DNA of 64,000 bases from Thermodesulfobacteriota bacterium (lineage in GTDB: Bacteria > Desulfobacterota_D > UBA1144 > Nemesobacterales > Nemesobacteraceae): contig OZ246948.1 in the NCBI GenBank assembly GCA_965232155.1, positions 1,016,434 through 1,080,433 on the forward strand, in the 5' to 3' direction. Of this stretch, positions 3,715 to 6,176 are shown one piece after another; positions within the stretch are counted from its first letter, which is position 1, and every line of letters begins with the position of its first letter. The notes beneath the pieces were generated by a model. The model had not been told where the DNA came from. It searched no databases and was given only the letters and a program-made list of their open reading frames with translations. Both the position numbers and the translations under genes were made by a program.

Positions 3715-4914
3715 TCAGGCCCCGCCGTTTTCAAACGTTTTCAGTATCCCGTAGGTCGTGTCGCGTTCGGCCGGGATTCTGCCTATTTCTCTGGTGAGTT
3801 TTCTGAACTCCTCGGGCGGGAAGTACTGTCCGTAACTTGCACCGGCGAAACGGGATATCTGCTCTTCCATCAGCGTTCCCCCGAAATCGTTTGCCCCGGC
3901 GGTGAGAGAGAACTGGGCGAACTCGGGTCCCTGCTTTACCCAGGAGACCTGTATGTTGTTTATCCATCCCCGAAGCATCATTCGGGAGACCGCGTACATT
4001 TTCAGCTGGTCAAGATCGGTCGGGCCCTTTCTCACCTTCCCCTTGGAGTGAATAAAGAGCCTCGTGTTCCAGGGAATGAACCGAAGCGGAACGAACTCAG
4101 TGAACCCTCCAGTCTCTTTCTGTATGTCCCTCAGGATTCCAAGGTGTATGGCCCAGTGATGGCGCTTGTCCAGGTGACCGTACATTATGGTCGAAGTGGT
4201 TCTCATTCCCTCCCTGTGGGCTTTTTTAACCACCCTTATCCATACCTCGGTCGGTATCTTCCTGGGAGCGATTACCTTTCTTACTTCTTCAACCAGAACC
4301 TCGGCCGCGGTGCCTGGGAAGGTGTTGTGACCGACATCCTTGAGTCTTCTTATGAATTCCTCTTCCTCTATGCCGAGAGTCTTGGCGCCGTAGTAGATCT
4401 CGTAGGGGGAGAAAGCGTGGGTATGCATCTCGGGCACGGCTTTTTTAACCGTCTTTATAAGTTCGATGTAGAAATTGCCGTCTATCTCGGGATGCATGCC
4501 TCCCTGCATGCATACTTCCGTCGCGCCTATCTCCCAGGCTTCAACGGTTCTCTCCGCGACTTCGTCCATCGAGAGGAAATACGCTCTCTCGTCGCCCTCG
4601 TCCGCCATAAAATTGCAGAAGCCGCAGTAGACATCGCATATGTTGGTGAAGTTTATGTTTCTGTTAACGACGTAGGTAACCACATCCCCGACATCTTCCT
4701 TTCTTATCTGATCGGCCGCGAGAGCCAGGGCGGATATCTCGTCTGTATCCTCTATGCTGAAAAGATGGATTCCGTCCTCAACCGAGATCTCTTTTCCCGA
4801 AAGCGCGTCCTCGATTATGCGGCCCGTTGTGCCGTTTATACGCGACATCACCCCGTCGACACCGAGGGGCCTTCTCTGCTCTATGGACTCTATTATTTTG
4901 TTTATGTCTTCCAT
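3715..4914 (-). CDS. cofH: Radical SAM enzyme, CofH-like (FO synthase subunit 2); MqnC/MqnE not excluded
   Basis: NINFTNICDVYCGFCNF radical-SAM motif and C-terminal TAGANDFGGT. It lies 3 nt downstream of a CofG-like gene, the same domain order as FbiC. Confidence 0.55.
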   Translation of the reverse strand: MEDINKIIESIEQRRPLGVDGVMSRINGTTGRIIEDALSGKEISVEDGIHLFSIEDTDEISALALAADQIRKEDVGDVVTYVVNRNINFTNICDVYCGFCNFMADEGDERAYFLSMDEVAERTVEAWEIGATEVCMQGGMHPEIDGNFYIELIKTVKKAVPEMHTHAFSPYEIYYGAKTLGIEEEEFIRRLKDVGHNTFPGTAAEVLVEEVRKVIAPRKIPTEVWIRVVKKAHREGMRTTSTIMYGHLDKRHHWAIHLGILRDIQKETGGFTEFVPLRFIPWNTRLFIHSKGKVRKGPTDLDQLKMYAVSRMMLRGWINNIQVSWVKQGPEFAQFSLTAGANDFGGTLMEEQISRFAGASYGQYFPPEEFRKLTREIGRIPAERDTTYGILKTFENGGA

Positions 4915-4916
4915 TT

Positions 4917-6176
4917 TCAGTTTACGGGAACGTATCCTCTCTCATCAACGCGTTCTCTTACCTTGCCGAGAACATAGGGGTCTATCCACCGCTCGTCTAT
5001 GTACTCGGGATATACGGGAAGCCTTTCCCGAAGCTCATAACCCAGTGCGCTTACCTCCCTTTCCATTCTCTCAACCTGAGGCCAAGGGGCCTCGGGGTTC
5101 ACATAGTCTATCGTGAGAGGCGACACGCCGCCCAGGTCGTTTACGCCGGCCGTCAGGTAAAAAGTGAAATTCCTGTTGTTAAGGTTAGGGGGTATCTGTA
5201 TGTTCATTTCCCCTCCGAATATTAGCCTCGAGATGGCTACGATCTTCAGCATCTCGAGAAAATCGGCGGGAGGGTACTCCTCCATCTTTATTCCTTCCTT
5301 GGGGTTGAAGTTCTGGATTATTATTTCCTGCAGGTGACCGTACCCGCGGGAGAGTTCAAGCAGGGCGTAAAGCGAGTCCACTCTCTCCTCGAACGTTTCC
5401 CCGATTCCCACCAGTATGCCGCTTGTCCAGGGGATACTGAGATCTCCTGCGTGCTCCATTGTCTCCATCCTGAGCTTCGGGACCTTGTCGGCGCAGCCGT
5501 GATGGGCGTTTCCCCGCTTAAGCAGCCTCTCGCTTATATTCTCTAGCATGAGACCCATGCTGGGGTTGCTTTTTCTGAACCCGGAGAGTTCTTCCGGTGT
5601 TGAGAGCCCGAGGTTCGTGTGGGGGAAGATTCCGTGCTCAAGCCCTGTTTTTCCCATGTCAATCAGGTACTCCGCCGTCGTTTCGTAACCGATTTCCCCG
5701 AGCGCGTCCCTGTATACCTGGTAGGCGAGTTCCGGCTTGTCGCCCGTGACGAAAAGAAGTTCCGTACATCCCGCTTCCGCTCCTTTTTTCGCCATGTCGA
5801 CGACCTCTTCCGGAGTCATGAACAGCTCTCCCTCTCCCGGCTCTATCTTGAACGTGCAGTACCCGCAGCGGTCCCTGCAGAGCTGGGTCAGGGGTACGAA
5901 AACGTTTTTGGAATAAGTTACGGTCTTTCCCTTCGAGCGGTTCCTGATGGCCGATGCGGCTAGAAGAAGAAAAGGGATTTCCCTTGGAAAAAGCTCCGCG
6001 AGGTAAAGTGCGTCTTCACGCGTAATGCTTTCTCCCTCTATCGCTTTTGATATTATTTTTTCAAGCTTTGGGGAGGGACTAAGCTCCGAGAAGTCTCCTG
6101 CGCCGAACGTTTCAAGCAGCATGGCGCTTTCGCTTATGCCGAATGTTTTTTCCCAAGTCTCAGATAAAAGGCCCAT
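4917..6176 (-). CDS. cofG: Radical SAM enzyme, CofG-like (FO synthase subunit 1)
   Basis: [23 protein letters not shown] carries the CxxxCxYC motif typical of CofG and the FbiC N-terminal half; TAGVNDLGG near the C-terminus. Confidence 0.6.
   Translation of the reverse strand: [419 protein letters not shown]

What the first reader, a model, noticed from the sequence alone, without database searches (positions are those of the whole stretch)
3715..6176. Adjacent CofG-like and CofH-like radical-SAM genes (FO/F420 chromophore synthase) in a futalosine-menaquinone organism
The upstream gene carries CxxxCxYC within [23 protein letters not shown] (CofG-type). The downstream gene carries NINFTN...CxxxCxFC (CofH/MqnC/MqnE-type). 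The two are 3 nt apart, in the FbiC domain order. FO synthase in a Gram-negative with RNase Y and Mqn genes would be notable (FO as a photolyase antenna or F420 precursor). Because mqnA and mqnD are present elsewhere in the window, MqnC/MqnE identities for one or both genes must be excluded.
Basis: partly seen in the sequence, partly recalled or inferred. Interest (0 to 1): 0.5.

Follow-up and report, generated by a model that had tools for sequence, protein, structure and literature searches.

The report
Ordinary two-gene FO (F420 chromophore) synthase
These two adjacent genes are a normal, intact CofG/CofH enzyme pair that builds the deazaflavin FO, the light-absorbing core of cofactor F420, in a sponge-associated Dadabacteria bacterium; this is already annotated and published for the phylum, so it is ordinary.

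Summary
Two minus-strand ORFs, 4917..6176 (419 aa) and 3715..4914 (399 aa), each carry a CxxxCxxC radical-SAM motif. They lie 2 nt apart, not 3.

Curated NCBIfam models identify them as CofG (431 bits, cut-off 213) and CofH (484 bits, cut-off 374). MqnC (354 vs 428) and MqnE (305 vs 435) fail their cut-offs.

The organism belongs to a sponge-associated clade of Candidatus Dadabacteria. Public pipelines already name its orthologues FO synthase/CofH, and a 2021 review lists Dadabacteria among the phyla with F420 genes.

Most Dadabacteria have cofD(-cofE)-cofG-cofH. In the window's sub-lineage cofGH moved away from cofD. Three clade replicons that carry cofGH also carry an intact cofD (314 bits, cut-off 257; dN/dS about 0.1) at the old ppiD-smc-secA site. 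FO therefore most likely feeds F420. cofC and cofE could not be located.

Low-GC sister lineages place a class I photolyase beside cofGH. That gene is missing from the syntenic spot in the window.

cofG and cofH are under strong purifying selection (dN/dS 0.02-0.14). The one loose end is a 949-aa YdiJ-like oxidoreductase that stays next to cofH in several lineages.

Verdict: already known; low interest.

The parts
4917..6176 (-). cofG, the FO synthase subunit CofG (7,8-didemethyl-8-hydroxy-5-deazariboflavin synthase), 419 aa
   Evidence: TIGR03550 scores 430.9 bits (cut-off 213.35) over profile positions 1-321 of 322, and NF004884 scores 412.9 (cut-off 209). The next unrelated family scores below 94 bits. 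PF04055 Radical_SAM matches. dN/dS against clade relatives is 0.04-0.14.
5856..5879 (-). CofG radical-SAM cluster motif CRDRCGYC (CxxxCxxC), residues 100-107
3715..4914 (-). cofH, the FO synthase subunit CofH (5-amino-6-(D-ribitylamino)uracil--L-tyrosine 4-hydroxyphenyl transferase), 399 aa
   Evidence: TIGR03551 scores 484.3 bits (cut-off 374.1) and NF005609 scores 462.8 (cut-off 426). MqnC scores 354.1 (below 428.1) and MqnE 304.7 (below 434.55). PF04055 and PF19288 CofH_C match. dN/dS is 0.015-0.06.
4615..4638 (-). CofH radical-SAM cluster motif CDVYCGFC (CxxxCxxC), residues 93-100
6243..6272 (-). Sigma-70-like promoter candidate (TTGACA-18-GATACT) about 67 nt upstream of the cofG ATG, in the 178-nt divergent intergenic region
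   Evidence: Consensus scan, 10 of 12 matches. This is a consensus match only. The count in the region is not above the shuffled expectation.
805..3654 (-). Conserved downstream neighbour: a 949-aa YdiJ-like oxidoreductase (FAD_binding_4 + FAD-oxidase_C + 4Fe-4S + CCG). It is on the same strand, 60 nt after cofH, with no terminator-like site between them. Whether it belongs to the FO/F420 system is unproven.
   Evidence: NF049975 scores 541 bits, below its 1350 cut-off, and the GlpC-like C-terminal half scores 228 bits. Pfam domains were seen in relatives. The gene lies immediately after cofH in L091, L130 and the window clade, and 0.4-0.9 kb after it in L078 and L065. No terminator-like site falls in the cofH-ydiJ gap.

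Best explanation
The two genes encode the two-subunit radical-SAM FO synthase.

From the published mechanism of the family: CofH uses S-adenosylmethionine to cleave tyrosine and attach its 4-hydroxybenzyl group to 5-amino-6-(D-ribitylamino)uracil. CofG then uses a second SAM-derived radical to close the ring and give 7,8-didemethyl-8-hydroxy-5-deazariboflavin (FO).

Shown here:
- The pair sits tail-to-head, 2 nt apart, behind one promoter-like site.
- It is intact and strongly conserved.

Inferred: the pair is probably co-transcribed and translationally coupled, possibly together with the downstream YdiJ-like gene.

In this sponge-associated Dadabacteria clade, FO is most likely passed to CofD (2-phospho-L-lactate transferase) to start F420 assembly. 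cofD was left behind at the ancestral ppiD-smc-secA locus, 0.4-0.8 Mb away, when cofGH was relocated.

Status of each step:
- Shown: family identity, integrity, purifying selection, and cofD on three clade replicons.
- Inferred: cofD in the window's own genome (from clade relatives that bracket it), the presence of cofC and cofE, and actual FO or F420 production.

Sub-confidences: FO synthase identity about 0.95; FO destined for F420 about 0.75.
For: - **HMM scores:** CofG and CofH pass their curated cut-offs with full-length alignments, while MqnC, MqnE, HmdB, BioB, PylB, ThiH and HydE all fail theirs.
- **Motifs and domains:** both CxxxCxxC motifs are present, as is the CofH_C domain.
- **Relatives:** the top 120 hits (77-97% identity) include many that sources name CofH or FO synthase, from Dadabacteria/Thermodesulfobacteriota.
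- **Context across the phylum:** in 39 of the 88 loci then held (80 of them genome-collection loci), cofD (TIGR01819, 322 bits, cut-off 257) lies within the fetched flank, directly upstream of cofG in most. In 12 loci cofE (TIGR01916, 213-270 bits, cut-off 181) is also present. Five loci have an FrhB-like gene.
- **Selection on cofGH:** dN/dS is 0.015-0.06 for cofH and 0.04-0.14 for cofG within the clade.
- **cofD in the clade:** three replicons that carry cofGH also carry a 316-317-aa cofD. These are OX638332.1 (1,590,246 bp, L013/L213), OZ242322.1 (2,441,076 bp, L026/L216) and CATOTB010000001.1 (937,352 bp, L010/L218). The L213 copy scores 313.9 bits on TIGR01819. dN/dS for cofD is 0.10-0.15.
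- **Literature:** a review states that Dadabacteria encode the F420 biosynthesis genes (PMC8498797).
Against: - The window's own genome could not be searched. cofD is inferred from relatives that are 86-91% identical at the DNA level.
- cofC and cofE were not located in the clade, because no protein or genome searches remained.
- The 64-kb window contains no other F420 gene and no recognised F420-dependent enzyme.
- The nearest sister lineages link cofGH to a photolyase rather than to cofD. An antenna role for FO in the wider sub-lineage is therefore real and cannot be excluded here.
- No biochemistry exists for any Dadabacteria enzyme.
Confidence: 0.85

Rival explanations
1. FO is the end product, as in cyanobacteria. 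The pair would supply the free deazaflavin as a light-harvesting antenna for a photolyase and not for F420.
For: cofGH is uncoupled from cofD only in the window's sub-lineage. The closest outgroups place a class I photolyase (PF00875 + PF03441) directly in the cluster. L091 reads cofG-cofH-ydiJ-photolyase, and L033 and L059 read cofG-cofH-photolyase. Several more contigs carry both genes.
Against: The photolyase is absent from the exact syntenic position in the window (tmk ends at 11126, the next gene starts at 11127), and tblastn finds no remnant. No clade-chromosome member appeared among the photolyase homologues, although this is weak evidence. An intact cofD under purifying selection sits on three clade replicons, and CofD has no known role outside F420 synthesis. 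The adjacent photolyase is closest to the Sulfolobus tokodaii enzyme (2e0i) and fails the 8-HDF-type model cut-off (377 bits against 885), so its antenna is not established.
Confidence: 0.15
2. One or both genes are really the futalosine-pathway radical-SAM enzymes MqnC or MqnE, mis-read as CofH/CofG because the families are paralogous.
For: mqnA- and mqnD-type genes (PF02621) are in the window. CofH, MqnC and MqnE are close paralogues: MqnC scores 354 bits on the 399-aa protein, and the best solved structure match is MqnE (6xi9, 159 bits).
Against: MqnC scores 354.1 bits (cut-off 428.1) and MqnE 304.7 (cut-off 434.55), so both fail, while CofH passes two independent equivalog models. The 419-aa protein scores only 75-80 bits on the Mqn models against 431 on CofG. 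Orthologues are fused into cofD-cofE-cofG-cofH clusters in other Dadabacteria.
Confidence: 0.01
3. The pair is a decaying leftover of an F420 cluster in a reduced symbiont genome and is no longer functional.
For: The clade has small genomes of 1.5-2.4 Mb. The cluster was broken up. The window contains two apparently split genes.
Against: Both ORFs are full length with intact motifs. They are 90-98% identical in protein across species whose synonymous sites are heavily diverged (dS 0.3 to above 2, dN/dS 0.015-0.14).
Confidence: 0.02

Closest known systems
Two-subunit FO synthase CofG/CofH of methanogens (Methanocaldococcus jannaschii) and cyanobacteria
   Same: Separate cofG and cofH genes. Each protein has one CxxxCxxC radical-SAM site. 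Both give full-length matches above the curated cut-offs of TIGR03550 and TIGR03551.
   Different: No biochemical difference is visible. The host is a Dadabacteria sponge associate, and here the genes are adjacent and nearly overlapping. The downstream fate of FO is F420 in methanogens and a photolyase antenna in cyanobacteria; here it is inferred to be F420.
FbiC, the fused CofG-CofH protein of Actinobacteria
   Same: Same domain order. The two proteins align to positions 17-407 and 486-838 of the bifunctional model NF006687.
   Different: Not fused: a TGA stop and 2 nt separate the ORFs. Each protein alone scores 431-470 bits against a whole-protein cut-off of 1018.
cofD-(cofE)-cofG-cofH clusters of other Dadabacteria (for example UBA1144, CSP1-2, RIFCSPHIGHO2_12_FULL_53_21)
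   Same: Orthologous genes: CofH is 66-82% identical, in the same order and orientation.
   Different: In the window's sub-lineage cofD stayed at the ppiD-smc-secA site, while cofGH now lies between acs/rluB/tmk and ydiJ/holB. The block [tmk rluB cofG cofH ydiJ] is inverted relative to sister lineage L091, and the photolyase found there is missing.
MqnC / MqnE (futalosine-pathway radical-SAM enzymes; MqnE structure 6xi9)
   Same: Same CofH-family fold class (TIGR00423 subfamily, PF19288 C-terminal region). The organism does use the futalosine route (mqnA/mqnD present).
   Different: Scores fall 74 and 130 bits below the MqnC and MqnE cut-offs. The genomic partners are cofG, cofD and cofE, not mqn genes.

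Membership tests
CofG (TIGR03550 / NF004884) | Whole-protein score above the curated equivalog cut-off with a full-length alignment | tested here: met
   430.9 bits against 213.35, covering profile positions 1-321 of 322; 412.9 bits against 209.
CofG (TIGR03550 / NF004884) | Radical-SAM CxxxCxxC [4Fe-4S] motif | tested here: met
   CRDRCGYC at residues 100-107; PF04055 scores 61 bits.
CofH (TIGR03551 / NF005609) | Whole-protein score above the curated equivalog cut-off, and higher than the paralogous MqnC and MqnE models | tested here: met
   484.3 bits against 374.1 and 462.8 against 426. MqnC scores 354.1 and MqnE 304.7, both below their cut-offs.
CofH (TIGR03551 / NF005609) | Radical-SAM CxxxCxxC motif plus the CofH/MqnC C-terminal region | tested here: met
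   CDVYCGFC at residues 93-100; PF19288 scores 65 bits.
FO synthase (CofG + CofH as a system) | Both subunits encoded in one genome, typically linked | tested here: met
   The genes are adjacent, on the same strand, 2 nt apart. The adjacency is conserved in all 80 fetched Dadabacteria loci that have enough flank.
FO synthase (CofG + CofH as a system) | Catalytic formation of FO from tyrosine and 5-amino-6-ribitylaminouracil | not testable with these tools
   Needs heterologous expression or an enzyme assay.
F420 biosynthesis pathway | CofD (2-phospho-L-lactate transferase) in the same genome | tested here: inconclusive
   Not in the 64-kb window. Present, intact and above cut-off (313.9 bits against 257.45) on three replicons of the same clade that also carry cofGH.
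F420 biosynthesis pathway | CofC/FbiD and CofE/FbiB in the same genome | not tested
cofE was seen only in other Dadabacteria lineages (L065, L078, L069-73, L082, L084, L085-88).
MqnC (TIGR03699) / MqnE (TIGR03700) | Score above the curated equivalog cut-off | tested here: not met
   For the 399-aa protein, 354.1 bits (cut-off 428.1) and 304.7 (cut-off 434.55). For the 419-aa protein, 79.6 and 75.1 bits.
FbiC (NF006687, bifunctional CofGH) | A single fused polypeptide of about 850 aa | tested here: not met
   Two ORFs are separated by TGA plus 2 nt. Each scores 431-470 bits against a cut-off of 1018.

The most novel reading that the evidence does not exclude
The conserved cofG-cofH-ydiJ-like triad may be a functional module. 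The 949-aa FAD / Fe-S / CCG oxidoreductase stays next to cofH through an inversion. It sits between cofH and cofE in two F420 clusters, and between cofH and a photolyase in a third lineage. It could be a so-far unrecognised deazaflavin-linked enzyme. It might be an FO/F420-coupled 2-hydroxyacid dehydrogenase, or it might supply the hydroxy-acid moiety of the F420 side chain. The alternative is that it is only a syntenic passenger.
Probability: 0.08. Interest if true: 0.5.

Novelty: already known. Interest (0 to 1): 0.14.

Why it matters
It matters little beyond correct annotation. The result confirms that a sponge-associated Dadabacteria clade keeps the genes for the deazaflavin chromophore under strong selection, and probably makes F420. 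That adds one more symbiont group to the F420-capable members of sponge microbiomes.

The by-products of this work are modest but concrete:
- a reconstruction of how the phylum's cofD-cofE-cofG-cofH cluster was dispersed;
- a photolyase-linked variant in low-GC marine relatives;
- a recurrent cofH-ydiJ-like adjacency that could be tested for a role in deazaflavin metabolism.

Tried and rejected
- **Exact look-up of the window's CofH:** not on record.
- **CofD protein search, to ask whether the clade has cofD:** the list stops at 120 hits (67% identity or more), above the roughly 56% identity later found for the clade's CofD. It had no power.
- **Matching hits to clade chromosomes by the 'longest_contig' column:** unreliable, because the column describes only the cluster representative. 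L059's own photolyase was hidden behind a Logan representative.
- **Photolyase search plus cluster listing:** no clade-chromosome member was found. This is only weak negative evidence.
- **Apparent cofD fragment in UBA2774 (L035):** I took it for a possible pseudogene, but it was a masked run of N. Rejected.
- **Ancestral neighbours of cofD (ppiD, smc, rimO and others):** searched for in the window to find a deletion scar; none is present.
- **Metagenome scan with the CofD motif CPSNPIISI:** It did deliver L182, which led to the answer through.
- **Kiontke 2014 (PMC4094076), for 8-HDF-binding residues:** the paper is not held. The antenna type of the sister-lineage photolyase was left open.
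- **PDB:** it holds no CofG or CofH structure, so no structure-based test was attempted.
- **My first greedy ORF call:** it picked spurious plus-strand ORFs at 28.6-30.7 kb and missed mqnA, a dGTPase-like gene, hisF and hisA. This was corrected.
The curated HMM cut-offs and the gene context were used instead.
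Full report
**Observation.** The span 3715..6176 holds two minus-strand ORFs. The upstream one is 4917..6176 (419 aa) and the downstream one is 3715..4914 (399 aa). The radical-SAM motifs are CRDRCGYC (CofG residues 100-107, window 5856..5879) and CDVYCGFC (CofH residues 93-100, window 4615..4638). The junction reads TGA-aa-ATG, so the gap is 2 nt rather than 3. The two proteins are 26.5% identical to each other, and the window has no third paralogue.

**Family identity.** Against NCBIfam, the upstream protein scores 430.9 bits on TIGR03550 CofG (cut-off 213.35, profile positions 1-321 of 322). 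It scores 412.9 bits on NF004884 (cut-off 209), and every non-CofG family stays below 94 bits.
- The downstream protein scores 484.3 bits on TIGR03551 CofH (cut-off 374.1) and 462.8 on NF005609 (cut-off 426).
- The paralogous futalosine enzymes fail their cut-offs: MqnC scores 354.1 against 428.1, and MqnE 304.7 against 434.55.
- On the fused FbiC-type model NF006687 the two proteins cover positions 17-407 and 486-838, which is the FbiC domain order. They are nonetheless separate polypeptides.
- Pfam adds Radical_SAM on both proteins and CofH_C on the second.
- The PDB has no CofG or CofH structure. The best match for CofH is the MqnE structure 6xi9 at 159 bits.

The curated cut-offs and the gene context below answer the same question.

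**Organism and prior knowledge.** The closest proteins (77-97% identity) come from MAGs labelled Candidatus Dadabacteria, Thermodesulfobacteriota or Deltaproteobacteria. Sources already name them 'CofH' or 'FO synthase'. A scan of species-representative genomes returned 80 loci at 66-98% CofH identity. About 30 of these are at 90% or more and form the window's clade, with closed chromosomes of 1.5-2.4 Mb.
- Several isolate names (CAR2_bin_20, RHO1_bin_23, PNGco_C_bin25) look like sponge-microbiome bins. That reading rests on my own knowledge, not on a tool result.
- Dadabacteria MAGs are reported from sponge metagenomes (PMC12648040).
- The window is 86-91% identical in DNA to the nearest fetched loci, so it is a further species of that clade.
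- A review of F420 states that the F420 biosynthesis genes are encoded in multiple genomes of Dadabacteria (PMC8498797).

FO synthase in this phylum is therefore not new.

**Window content.** I ran Pfam and NCBIfam scans of about 60 ORFs across the 64 kb. Apart from cofG and cofH they found no cofC, cofD, cofE, photolyase or recognised F420-dependent enzyme family.
- Two adjacent PF02621 genes (mqnD-like at 26960..27793, mqnA-like at 27817..28761) show a futalosine-type menaquinone pathway.
- RNase Y is present.

**Comparative anatomy.** I called ORFs in all fetched loci and clustered them.
- In 39 of the 88 loci then held (80 from the genome collection), a gene within the fetched flank, directly upstream of cofG in most, is CofD (TIGR01819, 322 bits, cut-off 257).
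- In 12 loci CofE (TIGR01916, 213-270 bits, cut-off 181) is also present.
- Five loci add an FrhB-like F420-reactive subunit.

The phylum's basic arrangement is therefore an F420 cluster, cofD-(cofE)-cofG-cofH. A neighbour-joining tree of concatenated CofG+CofH shows one monophyletic sub-lineage (L076, L059, L038, L033 and the window clade). None of its members has cofD within 10 kb.

The closest outgroup to the window clade is L091 (CofH 87% identical, GC 35%). It reads metG- holB- tmk- rluB- | cofG+ cofH+ ydiJ-like+ photolyase+ | x- rhodanese+ sufE+ nifU+. L033 and L059 have cofG-cofH-photolyase.

The window has the same genes with three changes:
- The block [tmk rluB cofG cofH ydiJ] is inverted.
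- A spondin-domain gene and acs are inserted.
- There is no photolyase. tmk ends at 11126 and the homologue of 'x' begins at 11127, and tblastn finds no photolyase remnant.

**Is the product used for F420 or only as FO?** This was the real open point. Protein searches with a Dadabacteria CofD and with the sister-lineage photolyase were uninformative for the window clade. The listing stops at 120 hits, and the contig-length column describes only cluster representatives.

A scan of metagenome contigs with the invariant CofD motif CPSNPIISI was truncated. It still yielded Dadabacteria-type cofD genes in the ancestral secA-smc-ppiD context with no cofGH downstream. One group has low GC (35-39%), and one contig, L182, has 52% GC.

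L182's neighbouring genes belong to 90%-identity clusters. Those clusters have members on contigs of exactly 1,590,246, 2,441,076 and 937,352 bp, which are the lengths of OX638332.1, OZ242322.1 and CATOTB010000001.1. All three are window-clade replicons that carry cofGH (L013, L026, L010).

Looking those members up showed a 316-317-aa CofD (PF01933) on each replicon. It lies between a Suc_Fer-like gene and ppiD-smc-secA, 0.4-0.8 Mb from cofGH.
- The L213 copy scores 313.9 bits on TIGR01819 (cut-off 257.45).
- All copies are uninterrupted, with dN/dS of 0.10-0.15.
- cofG and cofH themselves are intact in those replicons.
- Within the clade, dN/dS is 0.04-0.14 for cofG and 0.015-0.06 for cofH.

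CofD has no known function other than attaching the phospholactyl group to FO. The best reading is therefore that FO feeds F420 in this clade. I put it at about 0.75.

**Mechanism.** From the established chemistry of the family (summarised in PMC8498797 and otherwise my own knowledge), CofH cleaves tyrosine by a SAM-derived radical. It transfers the 4-hydroxybenzyl group to 5-amino-6-ribitylaminouracil, and CofG uses a second radical to cyclise the intermediate to FO.

In the window, a promoter-like site (TTGACA-18-GATACT, 6272..6243) lies about 67 nt upstream of cofG. It is a consensus match only. No terminator-like site separates cofH from the YdiJ-like gene 60 nt downstream. A cofG-cofH(-ydiJ-holB) transcript is plausible but not shown.

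**Rivals.**
- *MqnC/MqnE identity* is excluded by the scores and the gene context.
- *A decaying remnant* is excluded by the selection analysis.
- *FO as the only end product, as a photolyase antenna,* is a live idea for the low-GC sister lineages. For the window clade it is weakened by the missing photolyase and the retained cofD. The sister-lineage photolyase is closest to the Sulfolobus tokodaii enzyme (2e0i) and fails the narrow 8-HDF-type model, so even there the antenna is unproven.

**Loose end.** A 949-aa YdiJ-like oxidoreductase (FAD_binding_4, FAD-oxidase_C, Fe-S, CCG domains; 541 bits on the YdiJ model against a 1350 cut-off) lies immediately after cofH in the window clade, L091 and L130. 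In L078 and L065 it follows within 0.4-0.9 kb, between cofH and cofE. It lies within 1.6-8 kb in L076, L077, L079, L081 and L061. This may be inherited synteny. A functional tie to deazaflavin metabolism is possible but unsupported, at about 0.08.

**Verdict.** The feature is a standard CofG/CofH FO synthase, already annotated and already noted for the phylum. Novelty: already known. Interest: low.

Noticed in passing
window 805..3654 (-); also L091:11272-14145, L065:12043-14904, L078:11640-14498, L130:2-919: A 949-aa YdiJ-like FAD/Fe-S/CCG oxidoreductase stays directly downstream of cofH in several Dadabacteria lineages. It lies between cofH and cofE in two F420 clusters, and between cofH and a photolyase in another lineage. 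It could be ancestral synteny or a functional link.
   Followed up: partly
L091:14348-15739, L092:5124-6515, L033:4041-5426, L059:11293-12678; expected site in window 11126/11127: Low-GC sister lineages carry a class I photolyase in the cofGH cluster. In the window clade an inversion of [tmk rluB cofG cofH ydiJ] coincides with loss of that photolyase from the locus, and no remnant is detectable.
   Followed up: yes
L213:8944-9897, L216:4946-5896, L218:4944-5897, L182:8663-9616: cofD of the window clade sits alone at the ancestral ppiD-smc-secA site, convergent with a conserved Suc_Fer-like (PF06999) gene, 0.4-0.8 Mb from cofGH. An IS110 transposase lies nearby in two of the replicons.
   Followed up: yes
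window 6355..7356 (+): A spondin-N-domain protein (an animal extracellular-matrix-type domain; NF038123, 98.9 bits) is transcribed divergently from cofG. Relatives encode versions of 271-450 aa, and the closest outgroup lacks it. It may be a eukaryote-like protein of a sponge associate.
   Followed up: no
window 53259..53374 (+): A lone 5S rRNA gene (86.7 bits) lies between rpoD and purN. There is no 16S or 23S rRNA gene and no tRNA gene anywhere in the 64 kb.
   Followed up: no
window 31416..32666 (-): A TnpB / IS605 OrfB-type gene (OrfB_IS605 plus the Cas12f1-like TNB domain) sits next to hisA. No tnpA was noticed.
   Followed up: no
window 15218..16550 (+) and 23700..25855 (+): Two genes look broken. 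A Pyr_redox_2 oxidoreductase is split into ORFs 15218..15679 and 15834..16550. An amidohydrolase has its N-terminal part fused in frame behind dapF (ORF 23700..25238) and its C-terminal part in 25379..25855. These could be pseudogenes of a reduced genome or assembly indels.
   Followed up: no
window 26960..28761 (-): Two adjacent PF02621 genes (mqnD-like and mqnA-like) confirm a futalosine-type menaquinone pathway. Neither matched any NCBIfam model at E<=1e-5 where tested. No mqnC or mqnE is in the window.
   Followed up: partly
window 18561..20117 (-) and 33597..35090 (+): RNase Y and an RNase E/G-family enzyme are both encoded in the same 64-kb stretch.
   Followed up: no
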